Assembly: GCA_038087875.1 (NCBI GenBank) | Contig: CM075989.1 | Span: 23,376,001-23,440,000 of the forward strand | From: Malacoraja senta | Lineage: Eukaryota | DNA: 64,000 bases | Direction: 5' to 3' | Shown: one piece after another, positions 2,096-58,292 of the stretch | Layout of the letters: each line of letters opens with the position of its first letter | How positions within the stretch are numbered: position 1 is the stretch's first letter | The notes under the pieces: generated by a model | Told to the model about the DNA's origin: nothing | What the model saw: the letters and a program-made list of their open reading frames with translations, nothing else | Databases searched by the model: none | Translations under genes and position numbers: made by a program

Positions 2096-2310
2096 ACTGT
2101 ATCTGCAGTTGCTCGTGTGCATAGGACAGAGGGGTCCGTGTGGGAGTAAGTTACTCCAACATTGTTCTACACAAGGTTTCACCCTCGCCAGTCGCTTGTG
2201 TCTCTATTGTTAATTTTAGGCGACCGATGCAAAAATAAGGTGCGGTGGCTCCACCTCTGGTGGGAATAATAACTGCGGCATGAAAGATATATGTGTTTTA
2301 AATATATACA

Positions 2311-2364
2311 GGGGTGGGAGATTGCAACCTTCACGTGGTCCAAGCTGTTTCGACGAATGCAATC
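2311..2364 (+). ncRNA. Minimal HDV/CPEB3-like ribozyme fold (this copy has 2 P1 mismatches)
   Basis: P1 GGGGUGG/CCAAGCU, P2 GAUUGCA/UGCAAUC, P3 ACC/GGU, L3 UUCACGU, GU, minimal P4 UUCGA, J4/2 C-GAA. Confidence 0.75.
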
Positions 2365-2449
2365 AACCTGGCATGCACAAACAGAAGATCAAACAGAACA
2401 AGTTGTCTTACAACTTTAGGCTGTGCACGCCATACACAAGAAGAAGAAG
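2311..2449 (+). mobile_element. Short retroposed element with HDV-like ribozyme head and (AAG)n tail
   Basis: Flanked by aatatataca (2301-2310) and aacatataca (2450-2459); ends in aagaagaagaag; structured body. Confidence 0.75.
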
Positions 2450-3327
2450 AACATATACATAATAATGCATAATTATGAAGAACTTTAAAATGGTGACAAA
2501 TTTAAGTACTTACTGAGTAAAGGTTATGTCAATAAGGGCCGATGGATAAATCTGTAGCTCAAATCTCCACCATAATGTCCTTCAAATAGAAATATCCTGA
2601 GCATGGTCATTATGGATAAAAACATGGTGAACAAGAGGCCTTGAATGAAGGCTGTCTTGCATCTACATTTTCATCCTTCTCGCTCGTGCTAATCAGCTTT
2701 TCAGGTTCACATTTCACAGTTAACAGGCTCTGTTACAGGGATTAGCTTGCCATGGCAAAGACTTTTATCTCCTGCTGTCAGTGTGAGTAACTAATCGCGA
2801 TCAACCAACAACTGCGACAACGTGTACAGTTGAAGCTCTGTAACTCTTCAGCTCTCAAAGCATCAGGACCAGTCTGCTCTTCATCAAAGCAACTTCAGCT
2901 GCGTTACTCAAGGACGCTTCTCCTGATCCTTGTCATATCAGCAGAGCAGAGAGAACAAGAAGGCAGTTAGTTAATGATTGCTCTAATTACGATCCGCGCT
3001 TTAAAGTTACACGGTCAGTGAAAGAGAGTGACGTACACAGGCAGACTGGCGCTTCGTACACACAAGGCATTATCTGCCCAATATCCAATCATGTCTCCCT
3101 ATTTATCTGCAAGAAGCGACAAATAACCTAATCCTTCATAATTCCACTTTCCACGATTCTTTGGGACTTTTCTTTGGGAGTGATACAATCCATTCGTATG
3201 GCAGAATGAATTAAATGTAAATCATGTTAATCTGGATTGAATTTGATCTCTGAATGATATAGTGTGCTGCTGTCCAGACAGCACCCACATTAGATCCACA
3301 GCGGATGTCTGGAGACATCTGCAGCTT

Positions 3328-13608: not shown

Positions 13609-14486
13609 GGGGGGGATGGGATGGGGGTGGGGGGGGGGGGGGGTGGATAGAGGTGTTATTCTAACACATTGTGTTCTACACAACACCAGCATCTGCAGTT
13701 CCTTGTGTTTCTAAAGATCGGGTAATCTGTATTTGCCAATCTGTAATCATCTCAAACGCCCTGTCTTCTGGTTTCTGAAGAAGGATCCTGACGTGAAAAG
13801 TCACCCATCCTTGTACTCCAGAGATGCTACCTGACCTGCCGAGTTACTCCAGCTCCAGTGTATTGACCAGCATCTGCAGTTCCACGTTGCTAGCAAGTCA
13901 CTAAGCATTTTTGCTCACAGAAATGGCTTTGTGCTTCATTCCACACGACTGACCCCAATCCAACAGCTTCTCTGGGTCACAGTCGGAATTCACCAGATCG
14001 GAGCACACAAACGGTTCTTCTGCCAACTTATTTCACGCAAATCAATGAGCACGTGGCCAAATGTGAGTGAGGACCATCACCCGTCCCCTCAGCCACTGCT
14101 CTACGATACAGCAACACTCCGCTCAGTCCACACACTCATTCCATATTATTTTCTCAAAAAATTCCTTCAGGTTAGACAAACACGGCTCACAAAGGACCAA
14201 TCATCTTTGCCTTTCCAGCATTTATTTGAAGTCTAATTGCCACCTTCAGTAATTCTCTTGCTGTTGACACAAGACTTGCAAATCTGTTCCTTTCCTCCCC
14301 TCCCCCCTCCTTTTCTGGAACAGAGCCCCGATATAATATTTATTTCCTTGGCGCAGTTCCCACGTCCAAAGAATTGAGAAACAAGACGATTATATCTCGT
14401 TGCCTTCTCACTAACCTCCTGCAGAACCCCCGCGCAGATTTGGGCCTCACTTAGTGCGGCGATTGGTGCCTTAATACTTATAGCTG

Positions 14487-15168
14487 GTGACCCCATACAC
14501 TAGTGACCCCGTACACTAGTGATCCCGTACACTAGTGATCCCGTACACTAGTGACCCCGTACACTAGTGATCCCGTACACTAGTGACCCCGTACACTAAT
14601 GACCCCGTACACTAATGACCCCGTACACTAATGACCCCGTACACTAATGACCCCGTACACTAGTGACCCCGTACACTAGTGACCCCGTACACTAGTGACC
14701 CCGTACACTAGTGACCCCGTACACTAGTGACCCCGTACACTAGTGACCCCGTACACTAGTGACCCCGTACACTAGTGACCCCGTACACTAGTAATCCCGT
14801 ACACTAGTGACCCCGTACACTATTACACTAGTGACCCCGTACACTAATGACCCCGTACACTAGTGACCCCGTACACTAGTGACCCCGTACACTAGTGACC
14901 CCGTACACTAGTAATCCCGTACACTAGTGACCCCGTACACTAGTAATCCCGTACACTAATGACCCCGTACACTATTACACTAGTGACCCTGTACACTAAT
15001 GACCCCGTGCACTCGTGACCCCGTACACTAATGACCCCGTACACTAATGACCCCGTACACTAGTGACCCCGTACACTAGTGACCCCGTACACTAGTGACC
15101 CCGTACACTAGTGACCACGTACACTATTACACTAGTGACCACGTACACTAGTGACCACGTACACTAGT
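14487..15168. repeat. 16-bp minisatellite (tagtgaccccgtacac)n, ~42 copies
   Basis: Direct tandem repeat with period 16 (e.g. 14501 and 14517); variants taatgacccc and acactatt inserts. Confidence 0.97.
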
Positions 15169-55658: not shown

Positions 55659-57451
55659 TCCAATTAATGGTTATTGGACCAATTCACCTGCATCTCATCA
55701 GCCCCACTCCTTATAAACACAGGAGCCTTGGAGACGTGCATATTGTAGATCAATTCTGATATGTTTTTAAAAAAAAATTAAATCCAGCTGCAGTTCTTAA
55801 AATTTGCTTTAAGTCCAGGGTTGTGATATAATATGAGTCAATGAAGGAAACCAAAGACTCAAAGGTGGAGAGAACACTGCTGCTTGGTTCCTTGCTGTGT
55901 ATGTTTGGGGTAGTTTACATGTTCACACTTACCAATGAGTTCCACTTATAGTCCACAACTGTGTTTTTCTGGTGGTCACATAGTTGGCAGGTACAGTTGA
56001 AAGGAACATAGAACAGGACAGCACAGCAACAACGGGCCCTTCAGTCCACAATGTTTGTGTTGGACATGATGCCAAGTTAAACTGGTCTCATCTGCCTGCA
56101 CCTGATCCATATCGCGCTAATCCTTGCACTTCCATGTGCCTGGGTCTTCCCAATCTTCTGGAAACGATTGGGAAAACCTAAATAAAAATCCCAAATCAGT
56201 ATCAGGACTGGGACAAGGGAAGGACCATCCGAGATGCTTGTTTGAAGAATGGCTCCAACCCAAAACATCACCTGTTCACTCCCTCCACAGATGCCCGGCC
56301 TGCTGGTGCCTGGCCTGCTGAGTTCCTCCAACACTTAGTGTTTTGTTCACAATTTCTGTCCTATTTTGTTGTAGATTAGACCATGACTCGTCATCAATTT
56401 ACCAGATGTATAGCAGAGATTTATGGATCTGGAGATTTATAATCTGGAAGATGATGGCTCTTAATGAAAGCTTCACATATTCTCAATGGGTGAGGTTCAC
56501 ACAATGAGTCTCAGTTCTATGGAATGACCTTCTACTGATCTATTTGCAGCCAGAACCACATCAGTACTGCTGAACAAAATGAAAGAGCTCTTCAAATGAA
56601 TAGTTTTGGTTTCCCTTTCCTGGAATTCCATTGGGGTGCTCCCTTTAATTTAGCATCTTGATTAGTGTGTATCTGTGCTTTAGTTAGGCGTAAATTAAGC
56701 CTGTACATTAAGCCAGCTGCTGGTTTCACTGTCCCCTTGATTAATTTTACTGTTTGAATGCCCTTGTTGTCACCTTCTCCTCAGCCAACAATGAACCATT
56801 CCACATTTCCTTGATCAATGTCTGCTTTGATCTGTCGTTTTCACACCTTATCCTTCCATATCTCAAGTCTCCCTCTCCCCTGACTCTCGGTATGAAGAAG
56901 GGTCTCGACCAGAAACATCACCCATTCCTTTTCTCCAGAGATGCTGCCTGACCCGCTGAGTTACTCCAGCATTTTGTGACATGGGTGTCAGGGGTTATGG
57001 GGAGATGGCAGGAGAATGGGGTTAGGAGAGATTGATAGATCAGCCACGATTAAATGGCGGAGTAGTGTGTATTTGGAACTTGCTGCCAGAGGAAGCGGTA
57101 GCGGTAGGTAGGCAAGAATAGCTATGAAATTTAAATGACACTTGGACAAGAACATTGATAGGAATAATTTACAGGGATACTAGACTAAGTGGGACCCGTT
57201 GGGTCCCATGTTCACACGGGAGGGCTGGTCTCTCAATATTGGTGGCCAGTGGGGGGGGGGGGGGCTTTCTGGAGCGCTGGTATGGGTGTTTTTGGCTGCA
57301 GGGACTACTGGTCTCCAGAGGGCTAGTATGGACATTGTGGGCCAAATGGATTTTTGGGGCGGCAGCTCAGTCCCTCAAGCCTGATGTGCTGGCAGCTCAC
57401 TCACAGCTGGTGGGCTGGCAGTTGACTCATGGCTGTTCCTTGAAATTCCAT

Positions 57452-57895
57452 TTCAAGCAGAGTGCAAGGCACCAAATTCAAATCCATTTTCCTACCATTT
57501 CAAGCAGGGTGCAAGGCCACCAAATTCAAGTGCAGTTTCTTACCTCTTCGAGCAGGGTGCAAGTCCACCAAATTCAAGTGCAGTTTCTTACCTCTTCGAG
57601 CAGGGTGCAAGGCCACAAAATTCAAGTGCAGTTTCATACCACTTCAAGCAGGGTGCAAGGCCACCAAATTCAGGTTCAGTTTCCTACCACTCCAAGCAGG
57701 GTGCAAGGCCACCGAATTCAAGTGCAGTTTCCAACCACTTTAAGCAGGGTGCAAGGCCACAAAATTCAAATGCTGTTTCATACCATTTCATGCAGGGTGC
57801 AAGGACACCACATTCAAATGCAGTTTCATACCATTTCATGCAGGGTGCAAGGCCACCACATTCAAATGCAGTTTCATACTATTTCAAGCAGGGTG
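57452..57895. repeat. 48-bp minisatellite (~9 copies) within the Helitron
   Basis: ttcaagcagggtgcaaggccaccaaattcaagtgcagtttcataccac; explains the 16-aa periodic ORF 57155-57907. Confidence 0.95.
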
Positions 57896-58292
57896 AAACC
57901 ACCATAAAAACCACCATAAAACCACATAAAACACCACACTCACAGTTCAGTAGACATTCAGTGTGTTCAGTTGATTCACAGCTCAGACAGAGTCGTGACC
58001 TCTCCCTCCCCATCATGCAGAGACTGAGTCACACCCACACTTCCGGGTTTTATAATCCCTCTCCCTCCCACCCCCACCAGAAAAGGTGTGGCCTTCATGG
58101 CGTGATTGACAAGAGAGAGATTCTCAACATTTTTTAAACACTAATAACACTTTTGTTTTTCATTGATGGGAAGAATCCTCTGCACATGATGAGCGGAGGG
58201 GGACTGAGTAAGATGGCCAAAAATCACAGCTGTAAGTGGTAGCATTTTATCTAAAATCAATATAGTGCAAACAGGAAGTTGTCAAGTTTAGA

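What the first reader, a model, noticed from the sequence alone, without database searches (positions are those of the whole stretch)
2311..2449. SINE-like element headed by a minimal HDV/CPEB3-type ribozyme, starting exactly at the cleavage site
Seen: 2311-2364 maps onto the HDV double pseudoknot. P1 is GGGGUGG (2311-17)/CCAAGCU (2340-46) with a G1-U wobble and 2 mismatches; P2 GAUUGCA/UGCAAUC is a perfect 7 bp; P3 is ACC/GGU; L3 is UUCACGU; then GU, a tiny P4 UUCGA, and C2354-GAA. The element ends in (AAG)n and is flanked by a 10-bp near-duplication (aatatataca/aacatataca), so its 5' boundary is G1. Known: the mammalian CPEB3 ribozyme has the same L3 UUCACGU, GU junction and C-GAA J4/2, and HDV-like ribozymes process the 5' ends of R2/RTE/L1Tc retroelements. 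Inference: a promoterless non-autonomous retroposon family that excises itself from host transcripts and is mobilised by a LINE. I do not know of such a family described in elasmobranchs.
Basis: partly seen in the sequence, partly recalled or inferred. Interest (0 to 1): 0.92.

Follow-up and report, generated by a model that had tools for sequence, protein, structure and literature searches.

The report
Ribozyme-headed short retroposon family
This is one worn copy of a short mobile element present in thousands of copies, whose first 54 letters have the shape of a tiny self-cutting RNA that would trim the element's own front end, a device it shares with the larger jumping gene that copies it.

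Summary
The element is a real, high-copy non-autonomous retroposon. A whole-genome search gave 2860 first-look candidates, and the 40 that were scored were 96-100% identical. The 35-letter head occurs 1785 times.

The two P1 mismatches are private to the window copy.

Target-site duplications abut G1 in 42 of 61 copies, against 2 of 183 shifted controls.

I found the partner: a roughly 3.1-3.3 kb single-ORF LINE with endonuclease and reverse transcriptase, RTE-like in build. It starts with the same 54-nt head and ends in the same tail. An older subfamily is simply the LINE's first ~100 nt fused to its last ~45 nt.

The head fits every HDV-class constraint I tested, and it lacks P4.

Against the ribozyme reading:
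- No Rfam hit.
- No covariation.
- No excess folding energy.
- Cleavage is untested.

No earlier scan note covers this DNA. Similar proposals on other genomes were rejected.

Verdict: a new member of a known kind.

The parts
2301..2310 (+). Left target-site duplication (aatatataca)
   Evidence: Matches 2450-2459 in 9 of 10 letters and ends exactly at the base before G1.
2311..2364 (+). 54-nt HDV-like head. This copy carries two private P1 mutations, at 2343-2344.
   Evidence: Segment by segment. The family consensus forms 17 of 17 pairs of the fixed architecture, against at most 15 in 20,000 shuffles. The same head sits on the partner LINE.
2311..2317 (+). P1 5' strand. G2311 is G1, the predicted product 5' end.
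   Evidence: 45 of 61 copies start GGGG, and target-site duplications abut this base.
2320..2326 (+). P2 5' strand
   Evidence: 7 of 7 pairs with 2358-2364. 99.0% of cells paired across 28 distinct copies.
2327..2339 (+). P3 (ACC/GGT) closing L3 (TTCACGT)
   Evidence: P3 is paired in 100% of cells. L3 positions 20-23 are invariant and 24-26 at least 90% conserved in 42 copies. U20, C22, A23 and G25 match the positions named for CPEB3 in passages of PMC4836649.
2340..2346 (+). P1 3' strand. It reads CCAAGCT here and CCACCCT in the family.
   Evidence: 24 of 29 young copies have CCACCCT. About half of all exact heads have CCGCCCT, which gives a U5.G32 wobble.
2347..2353 (+). P1.1 partner G (with U), then a 5-nt linker TTCGA in place of P4
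   Evidence: C22-G37 is paired in 26 of 28 distinct rows. No P4 helix is possible in 5 nt.
2354..2357 (+). J4/2 CGAA. C2354 is the predicted catalytic cytosine.
   Evidence: C44 is at least 90% conserved and A46 and A47 are invariant in 42 copies. The second letter is G in subfamily A and T in subfamily B and the LINE.
2358..2364 (+). P2 3' strand
2369..2432 (+). Structured 3' domain: an 11-bp long-range stem (2369-2379 with 2422-2432) enclosing the hairpin 2400-2406 / 2410-2416
   Evidence: For a consensus-like copy the minimum free energy is -23.6 kcal/mol, z = -3.58, and 1 of 200 shuffles folds as well.
2410..2437 (+). Segment shared with the 3' end of the partner LINE: its last codons, the TAG stop and an 18-nt 3' UTR
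   Evidence: LINE 3' ends L056, L057, L069, L074, L078 and L079 read ...LDLQL-stop and then the same tail. The A and B consensus tails differ at 0 of 21 positions.
2438..2451 (+). (AAG)n tail
   Evidence: Its length varies among copies.
2450..2459 (+). Right target-site duplication (aacatataca). Its first two letters overlap the tail.

Best explanation
The window holds a dead copy of a short non-autonomous retroposon that arose from an RTE-like LINE by internal deletion.

Shown by sequence: the family is built of three parts. The first is the LINE's 54-nt 5' head. The second is a variable body. The third is the LINE's last ~30-45 nt plus (AAG)n. Inserts begin at G1 and are flanked by variable target-site duplications.

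Inferred mechanism:
1. Copies are transcribed as parts of longer host transcripts.
2. The head folds into a P4-less HDV-type double pseudoknot (P1, P2, P3 and a one-pair P1.1).
3. The cytosine at element position 44 (C2354 in the window) catalyses cleavage just 5' of G1. This frees an RNA whose first base is G1.
4. The LINE's reverse transcriptase recognises the structured 3' domain and tail.
5. It copies the RNA by target-primed reverse transcription, up to G1.

The window copy itself has two P1 mutations and most likely no longer cleaves.
For: Family and 5' end:
- 2860 first-look candidates; the 40 scored were 96-100% identical.
- 781 exact copies of head positions 10-44, and 1785 of positions 1-35 with Y at position 5 and R at position 32.
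- Target-site duplications of score 9 or more lie within 3 nt of G1 in 42 of 61 copies. Boundaries shifted by 40-80 nt gave 2 of 183. 38 of the 42 lie within 1 nt of G1.
- 45 of 61 copies start GGGG.

Fold:
- The consensus forms 17 of 17 pairs of the fixed P1/P2/P3 architecture. The maximum in 20,000 dinucleotide shuffles was 15.
- A strict descriptor used the letters that PMC6326823 lists as conserved. It hits 32 times in 268,596 bases of fetched loci, all inside copies of the element. It hits 0 times in 50 shuffles of the window.
- ViennaRNA's minimum-energy fold recovers P1 and P3 unprompted.
- Letters and numbering up to position 38 match the positions named for CPEB3: G1.U36, U20, C22, A23, G25, and a P1.1 of one G-C plus one U-U. 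The J4/2 matches C57-G58-A59-A60 letter for letter, as C-G-A-A (PMC4836649 passages).

Selection at the level of source genes:
- The A and B consensus sequences differ at 1 of 54 head positions, 26 of 55 body positions and 0 of 21 tail positions.

Partner LINE:
- Its 3' ends carry the same tail.
- It carries the same head, followed by a ~70-nt 5' UTR and then the ATG.
- It has Exo_endo_phos_2 (E = 1.9e-8) and RVT_1 (E = 1.3e-25).
- The closest database relative is 72% identical. It is an intact 1019-aa ORF on a 3344-nt contig with the same C-terminus.

Precedent:
- RTEs carry HDV-like ribozymes and lack promoters of their own (review PMC6765202, passages).
- P4-less genomic HDV-like ribozymes are reported (PMC6326823 passage citing Riccitelli 2014).
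Against: - No Rfam family, HDV-like models included, matches the window copy or a consensus-like copy, even at E up to 10.
- No pair shows a change on both sides across 28 distinct copies, and the shuffle control is not exceeded.
- Folding energy is unremarkable. The nested fold has z = +0.59 (139 of 200 shuffles fold as well). A crude two-layer pseudoknot estimate has z = -1.35 (53 of 500 as good).
- P4 is absent.
- The LINE and subfamily B have U where the published descriptor asks for a purine, at the second J4/2 position.
- No RNA evidence of cleavage: only assembled contigs could be laid, and contigs cannot show RNA ends.
- Every LINE copy I saw is broken or truncated. The enzyme that drives the young subfamily is therefore unidentified.
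Confidence: 0.8

Rival explanations
1. The conserved head is a 5' module kept for another reason: an internal Pol II promoter like Pr77 of L1Tc, a translation-initiation element, or a protein-binding site. G1 would then be a transcription start. The HDV-like threading would be real but catalytically idle.
For: Conservation of the head across the LINE and all subfamilies shows constraint, not catalysis. In L1Tc the same 77 nt act as both promoter and ribozyme (PMC3383444, abstract in the listing). There is no covariation, no Rfam hit and no excess stability. P4 is absent, and the LINE's J4/2 is CUAA.
Against: It is hard to get every catalytic-core letter and all 17 pairs in the right register without selection for the fold. 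Ribozyme processing is the reported solution for promoterless RTEs (PMC6765202). A promoter role would also not exclude cleavage.
Confidence: 0.13
2. An ordinary Pol III SINE: the head descends from a small RNA gene with internal A and B boxes, and transcription starts at G1.
For: Element positions 39-43 (TTCGA) resemble the core of a B box. I judged this by eye on the sequence; the B-box consensus is recalled.
Against: ARAGORN finds no tRNA-like gene. Rfam finds no tRNA, 5S, 7SL or snRNA likeness at E up to 10 on either strand. The same head starts a ~3.1-kb protein-coding LINE. Subfamily B has an internal run of five T, which by established knowledge terminates Pol III.
Confidence: 0.03
3. 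Chance resemblance: an ordinary repeat whose head happens to thread onto the HDV scheme.
For: Earlier ribozyme proposals for repeat heads in other genomes of this scan were rejected. The thermodynamic z-scores are weak.
Against: The descriptor gave 0 hits in 50 window shuffles, and no hit outside the element in 268,596 bases of loci. The consensus forms 17 of 17 pairs against at most 15 in 20,000 shuffles. The head is the best-conserved part between subfamilies.
Confidence: 0.02

Closest known systems
RTE-clade LINEs with 5' HDV-like ribozymes (Ruminski et al. 2011). I know this only through passages of the review PMC6765202; the paper itself is not held.
   Same: A promoterless compact LINE with an HDV-like ribozyme at its 5' end, proposed to free the element from a co-transcript. 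It has a single endonuclease plus reverse-transcriptase ORF of about 1000 aa and a very short 3' UTR ending in a simple repeat. For example, PMC2887409 describes a 990-aa ORF and a 14-bp 3' UTR holding (GAA)2GA (passages).
   Different: The host here is a vertebrate-type 1.94-Gb genome. The ribozyme lacks P4. A derived ~130-nt non-autonomous family far outnumbers the LINE. RT phylogeny was not run, so clade membership rests on architecture alone.
R2 SIDEs of Drosophila (Eickbush and Eickbush 2012, PMC3414825; abstract read)
   Same: Non-autonomous elements made by joining a LINE's 5' ribozyme to its 3' end. They are propagated by the LINE's target-primed reverse transcription and show variable 5' junctions.
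   Different: SIDEs are rare and confined to rDNA target sites. This family is dispersed, has thousands of copies, and has evolved subfamilies with new bodies.
L1Tc / NARTc / SIDER elements with the Pr77 HDV-like ribozyme in trypanosomatids (PMC4035085, abstract read; PMC3383444, listing abstract)
   Same: An abundant dispersed LINE and its truncated non-autonomous relatives share a 5' HDV-like ribozyme. The many copies sit inside host transcripts.
   Different: A different LINE clade (ingi) and a protist host. Pr77 also acts as a promoter, and the ribozyme sequences are unrelated.
Mammalian CPEB3 ribozyme (PMC4836649, passages)
   Same: The same helix lengths and numbering up to position 38: G1.U36, U20, C22, A23 and G25. 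P1.1 is one G-C plus one U-U. The J4/2 linker is the 4-nt C-G-A-A.
   Different: CPEB3 has a P4 hairpin, is single-copy in an intron, and is known only from mammals. The Rfam library, which holds the CPEB3 model, does not match this head. That the remaining L3 letters are also identical is recalled, not tested.
Minimal P4-less HDV-like ribozymes (Riccitelli et al. 2014, seen only as a passage in PMC6326823)
   Same: Natural HDV-like cores that work without P4.
   Different: By that paper's title they come from the human microbiome and are not part of animal retroposons. I did not compare the sequences.

Membership tests
HDV-like self-cleaving ribozymes (double-pseudoknot class) | Nested double pseudoknot: P1 and P2 interleaved, with P3 inside P1 | tested here: met
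   The consensus forms 17 of 17 pairs, against at most 15 in 20,000 shuffles. 96.8% of cells are paired across 28 distinct copies, against 26-42% when the partners are slid. The structure was drawn from this consensus, so the slide control leans towards it.
HDV-like self-cleaving ribozymes (double-pseudoknot class) | Cleavage-site G1 forming a G.U wobble as the first P1 pair | tested here: met
   G.U in 23 of 28 distinct rows. The wobble is named for CPEB3 and HDV in PMC4836649.
HDV-like self-cleaving ribozymes (double-pseudoknot class) | Conserved L3 letters (U, C, G, with the U.G reverse wobble) and a C-G pair forming P1.1 | tested here: met
   U20, C22 and A23 are invariant; C24 and G25 are at least 90% conserved. 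C22-G37 is paired in 26 of 28 rows. The features are as listed in PMC6326823.
HDV-like self-cleaving ribozymes (double-pseudoknot class) | Catalytic C opening J4/2 (descriptor C-R-R-A), directly before the P2 3' strand | tested here: met
   CGAA in subfamily A and in the window. The LINE and subfamily B have CTAA, which departs at the second letter.
HDV-like self-cleaving ribozymes (double-pseudoknot class) | Compensatory covariation in the helices | tested here: inconclusive
   0 pairs change on both sides. The copies are too alike to tell (mean column identity 97%). There is one subfamily-level one-sided change that keeps pairing: U5-A32 or U5.G32, in 53 and 44 of the first 100 listed.
HDV-like self-cleaving ribozymes (double-pseudoknot class) | Match to a curated covariance model | tested here: not met
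   No HDV-like Rfam family at E up to 10 or at gathering score. Rfam models hold no pseudoknots.
HDV-like self-cleaving ribozymes (double-pseudoknot class) | Mg2+-dependent self-cleavage 5' of G1 | not testable with these tools
   Needs a transcription-cleavage assay.
CPEB3 ribozyme family (as a member, not only as a look-alike) | P4 hairpin, match to the family model, and a single-copy place in the CPEB3 intron | tested here: not met
   A 5-nt linker stands in place of P4. There is no Rfam match. The element has thousands of dispersed copies.
Internally deleted, ribozyme-headed non-autonomous LINE derivatives (SIDE type) | 5' ribozyme and 3' end both shared with an autonomous LINE, with the coding region deleted | tested here: met
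   The LINE 5' end is the head, a UTR and then ATGCCAC. The LINE 3' end is ...CTTGATCTACAACTTTAG plus the tail. Subfamily B joins these two pieces.
Internally deleted, ribozyme-headed non-autonomous LINE derivatives (SIDE type) | Insertion by target-primed reverse transcription: target-site duplications, variable 5' junctions and 5' truncations | tested here: met
   Target-site duplications in 42 of 61 copies against 2 of 183 controls. One or two replaced 5' letters in several copies. Tail-only copies exist.
RTE clade of LINEs (the partner element) | Single ORF of about 1000 aa with AP endonuclease and RT, a very short 3' UTR with a simple repeat, and a total length of about 3.2 kb | tested here: met
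   Pfam hits. The ORF starts at an ATG ~70 nt after the head and ends in a TAG 18 nt before (AAG)n. Relatives are 950-1050 aa on 3.1-3.5 kb contigs. The features are as in PMC2887409.
RTE clade of LINEs (the partner element) | Placement inside the clade by RT phylogeny | not tested
   No named reference set of LINE clades was at hand. The sources' names for the relatives are uninformative.
Pol III SINEs (tRNA-, 5S- or 7SL-derived) | Head homologous to a small RNA gene | tested here: not met
   ARAGORN finds none. There is no such Rfam match at E up to 10.

The most novel reading that the evidence does not exclude
The mammalian CPEB3 ribozyme, and possibly the HDV ribozymes, may descend from this lineage of RTE-type retroposon ribozymes. 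These were already present in early jawed vertebrates. Up to position 38 the skeleton is the same base for base, as are the P1.1 and the J4/2 letters. On this reading, that likeness is homology and not convergence. CPEB3 would then be a domesticated copy that gained a P4 hairpin.
Probability: 0.1. Interest if true: 0.85.

Novelty: new member of a known kind. Interest (0 to 1): 0.6.

Why it matters
HDV-like ribozymes at the 5' ends of LINEs, and of their deletion derivatives, are known from insects, nematodes and trypanosomes. My searches of the held library found no report from sharks, skates or other elasmobranchs.

If the head cleaves, three things follow.
- It would be a very small natural animal HDV-like ribozyme (54 nt, no P4).
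- The genome would carry hundreds to thousands of intact self-cleavage sites: 781 exact copies of head positions 10-44. Any of these lying in sense inside a host transcript could cut that transcript, as was proposed for SIDER elements in Leishmania (PMC4035085 abstract).
- Its close likeness to the CPEB3 core gives a concrete, testable lead on where that mammalian ribozyme came from.

Tried and rejected
- **Rfam.** Searched at gathering score on the whole window, and at E up to 10 on the window copy and on a consensus-like copy. Only chance-level snoRNA, miRNA and coronavirus-UTR matches came back.
- **Pattern hunts that found nothing.** These looked for a LINE with an exact head or tail but a different neighbouring sequence. 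Another looked for a LINE 5' end built on the subfamily-B body.
- My 'not-this-letter' sets were mis-chosen. In effect they asked only that position 66 not be C. The 19 hits were older SINE copies, still useful as diverged members.
- **Predicted 5' ends of five more LINE copies.** Three (L083, L084, L087) showed neither head nor UTR. L086 is truncated inside the head. L085 has its 5' end inverted.
- **Sequencing runs.** All four laid runs are assembled contigs, and their RNA label is a guess. They cannot show RNA ends, strand or expression, so they say nothing on cleavage. I read nothing into the depth dip in the middle of the element.
- **Folding energy.** It does not set the head apart from shuffles.
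- **Covariation.** None, because the copies are near-identical decay products.
- **Earlier scan notes.** Nothing on this DNA.
- **Papers not held.** Ruminski 2011 and Webb 2009 could not be read.

Full report
**1. The observation.**
- 2311-2317 GGGGTGG faces 2340-2346 CCAAGCT. This gives a G1.U wobble, two central mismatches and four standard pairs.
- 2320-2326 GATTGCA pairs perfectly with 2358-2364 TGCAATC.
- ACC/GGT closes the loop TTCACGT.
- GT, TTCGA and C2354-GAA follow in that order.
- The unique part ends at 2437 and (AAG)n runs to 2451.
- aatatataca (2301-2310) is repeated as aacatataca at 2450-2459.

The 35-nt core is unique in the window and absent from 100 shuffles.

**2. It is a large, young family, and the family repairs P1.** A search of the window's own 1.94-Gb genome gave 2860 first-look candidates. 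All 40 scored places were 96-100% identical and nearly all were full-length.
- Head positions 10-44 occur exactly 781 times.
- Positions 1-35, with Y allowed at position 5 and R at position 32, occur 1785 times.
- In the aligned heads, 24 of 29 young copies read CCACCCT where the window reads CCAAGCT.

With CCACCCT, P1 is seven pairs opening with G1.U36. The window's two mismatches are private damage.

Young copies differ from their consensus at 41 of 3625 sites.

**3. The 5' end is G1.** I examined 61 copies. 29 were taken by overall likeness, 16 by a pattern in the head and 16 by a pattern in the tail.
- 45 of the 61 start GGGG.
- 42 have a target-site duplication of score 9 or more that ends within 3 nt of G1. 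38 of these end within 1 nt.
- The same search at boundaries shifted 40, 60 and 80 nt upstream found 2 of 183.
- Several copies have one or two replaced letters at the junction, as is usual for reverse-transcribed inserts.

**4. Subfamilies.** The tail pattern (121 hits) and the head pattern (19 hits) revealed older members.
- Subfamily B is about 4-6% from its consensus. It has the same head, except for T in place of G at position 45, a quite different body, and the same tail.
- The A and B consensus sequences differ at 1 of 54 head positions, 26 of 55 body positions and 0 of 21 tail positions.

The source genes therefore kept both ends while the middle changed freely. The genomic copies decay evenly: in A copies, 1.5% in the head against 0.8% in the body.

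**5. The partner LINE.** Six of the 30 tail-pattern loci end a coding sequence (...CDCGHPDQTIPHIVNDCP...LDLQL, then stop). It is followed by the same 18-nt 3' UTR and (AAG)n. Walking upstream by protein search led to locus L082. In sense order L082 reads:
1. head positions 10-54;
2. a ~70-nt leader;
3. an ATG;
4. an endonuclease domain (Exo_endo_phos_2, E = 1.9e-8);
5. a reverse transcriptase (RVT_1, E = 1.3e-25);
6. the Cys/His C-terminus.

In L082 a ~50-nt foreign insert splits off the first nine letters of the head.

A 30-mer specific to the LINE leader occurs 13 times. I read six of these loci, one of which is the L082 copy again.
- L093 has the complete head GGGGTGGGAG....
- L090 has the head from its second or third letter.
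- Three are truncated further in.
- No two share sequence upstream of G1.

Two further copies (L081, L085) have their first 100-200 nt inverted, and the inverted piece ends at head position 6-11.

Subfamily B is the LINE's head, most of its leader and ATGCCAC, joined to the LINE's last ~45 nt. It is an internal-deletion derivative.

The LINE's closest database relative is 72% identical. It is an intact 1019-aa ORF on a 3344-nt contig with the same C-terminal motif and ending. The other relatives are 950-1050 aa on 3.1-3.5 kb contigs.

A single ORF of this size and a 3' UTR that is little more than a simple repeat are the hallmarks listed for RTE elements (PMC2887409 passages). I did not run the RT phylogeny.

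**6. Is the head an HDV-like ribozyme? Points for.**
- All 17 pairs of P1, P2 and P3 form in the consensus. The maximum was 15 in 20,000 dinucleotide shuffles threaded on the same scheme.
- ViennaRNA finds P1 and P3 by itself.
- I wrote a descriptor after reading which letters a published HDV descriptor fixes: U, C and G in L3, the C-G of P1.1, and C-R-R-A in J4/2 (PMC6326823). It hits only copies of this element in 268,596 bases of fetched loci (32 hits). It hits nothing in 50 shuffles of the window.
- The positions that the CPEB3 NMR paper names recur at the same numbers and with the same letters up to position 38. These are G1.U36, U20.G25, C22, A23, and a P1.1 of one G-C plus one U-U. The 4-nt J4/2 (C57-G58-A59-A60 there) recurs letter for letter (PMC4836649 passages).
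- P4 is replaced by five nucleotides. Natural P4-less HDV-like ribozymes are reported (PMC6326823 passage citing Riccitelli 2014).

**7. Is the head an HDV-like ribozyme? Points against.**
- No Rfam model matches.
- No pair shows a compensatory change, and the shuffle control is not exceeded.
- Folding energy is ordinary.
- The LINE and subfamily B have U at the second J4/2 position.
- The one subfamily-level change inside a helix is A32 or G32 opposite U5. The first 100 listed split as 53 U5/A32, 44 U5/G32, 2 C5/G32 and 1 C5/A32. This change keeps pairing, but it is one-sided and of the CpG type, so it is weak support.
- The contigs of four public runs show the same variable sites: element positions 32, 42 and 45. 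They cannot show RNA ends.

**8. The 3' domain.** Element positions 59-69 pair with 112-122 around the hairpin 90-96/100-106. The minimum free energy is -23.6 kcal/mol, z = -3.58, and 1 of 200 shuffles folds as well. The hairpin's 3' arm and the stop codon are the LINE's last codons. I infer that this domain and tail are what the LINE enzyme recognises.

**9. Mechanism and rivals.** The best-supported reading, at about 0.8, has three steps. Read-through transcripts are cut 5' of G1 by the head. The freed RNA is then copied by the LINE's enzyme from the tail. Full-length inserts therefore start at G1. Of this reading:
- Shown: the family, its boundaries, the target-site duplications, the ends shared with the LINE, and the fit to the fold.
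- Inferred: co-transcription, catalysis, and recognition of the tail.

The main rival, at about 0.13, keeps the conservation but denies cleavage (promoter, translation or protein-binding element). A Pol III SINE (0.03) is disfavoured. Chance resemblance (0.02) is disfavoured.

**10. What is known, and novelty.**
- RTEs with HDV-like ribozymes, and the remark that some LINEs and SINEs use them, are in the review PMC6765202 (passages).
- Ribozyme-plus-3'-end deletion derivatives are the R2 SIDEs (PMC3414825 abstract).
- Abundant dispersed relatives are NARTc and SIDER (PMC4035085 abstract).

In the held library, searches for 'HDV-like' with 'shark' gave 2 papers, neither on this subject. 'HDV-like' with 'skate' gave 0. 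'Self-cleaving ribozyme' with 'retrotransposon' and 'elasmobranch' gave 1, unrelated by its title and abstract. Repeat databases such as Repbase and Dfam could not be consulted.

I file this as a new member of a known kind. It has a notable minimal, CPEB3-like core and a very high copy number.

**11. Open points.**
- Every LINE copy I saw is broken, while subfamily A is young. The active enzyme source is unidentified.
- Near-identical element words occur in runs of at least seven coded organisms. I did not resolve what these organisms are.

Noticed in passing
L050 and L067 (about 1300-1560 in element orientation); also C5:30332795 and C5:30398018 in the list: A different, very abundant non-coding repeat ends in the same LINE tail (hairpin, TTTAGGCTGTGCACGCCATACGC, then (AAG)n). 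The RTE-like LINE therefore seems to serve a second non-autonomous family. This repeat looks like the one that fills the window (families D2, D3, D6 and D8), but I made no direct comparison.
   Followed up: no
L058, L077 and many rows: Many inserts of only about 45 nt consist of the hairpin, the tail and (AAG)n, with unrelated DNA directly upstream. They are extreme 5' truncations or a tail-only micro-family.
   Followed up: no
L081 3640-3760; L085 (last ~200 nt as shown): Two LINE copies carry their first 100-200 nt inverted, head-to-head with the rest of the element. The inverted piece stops at head position 6-11. This looks like the twin-priming inversions known from L1.
   Followed up: partly
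L082 2515-2575: A ~50-nt piece resembling a tRNA-derived SINE (ggcacagtggcgcaatggtagagttgctgcc...) is inserted between the first letters of the LINE's head and the rest. The same motif flanks other copies (L024, L029).
   Followed up: no
window 14432-15048 and 57422-57949: Two tandem arrays, with periods of 16 nt and 48 nt.
   Followed up: no
runs X1-X19: Near-identical words of the element are held by runs labelled with at least seven different coded organisms (share 1.00) and two more (0.67-0.75). The young subfamily is therefore either shared among close species or the labels overlap.
   Followed up: partly
element positions 24-25, 41-42 and 44-45 across copies: Most differences in the head are C-to-T or G-to-A changes at CpG sites (for example TTCAAC, TTTTGAC, TCATGTGG). 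This is as expected for methylated, neutrally decaying copies.
   Followed up: partly
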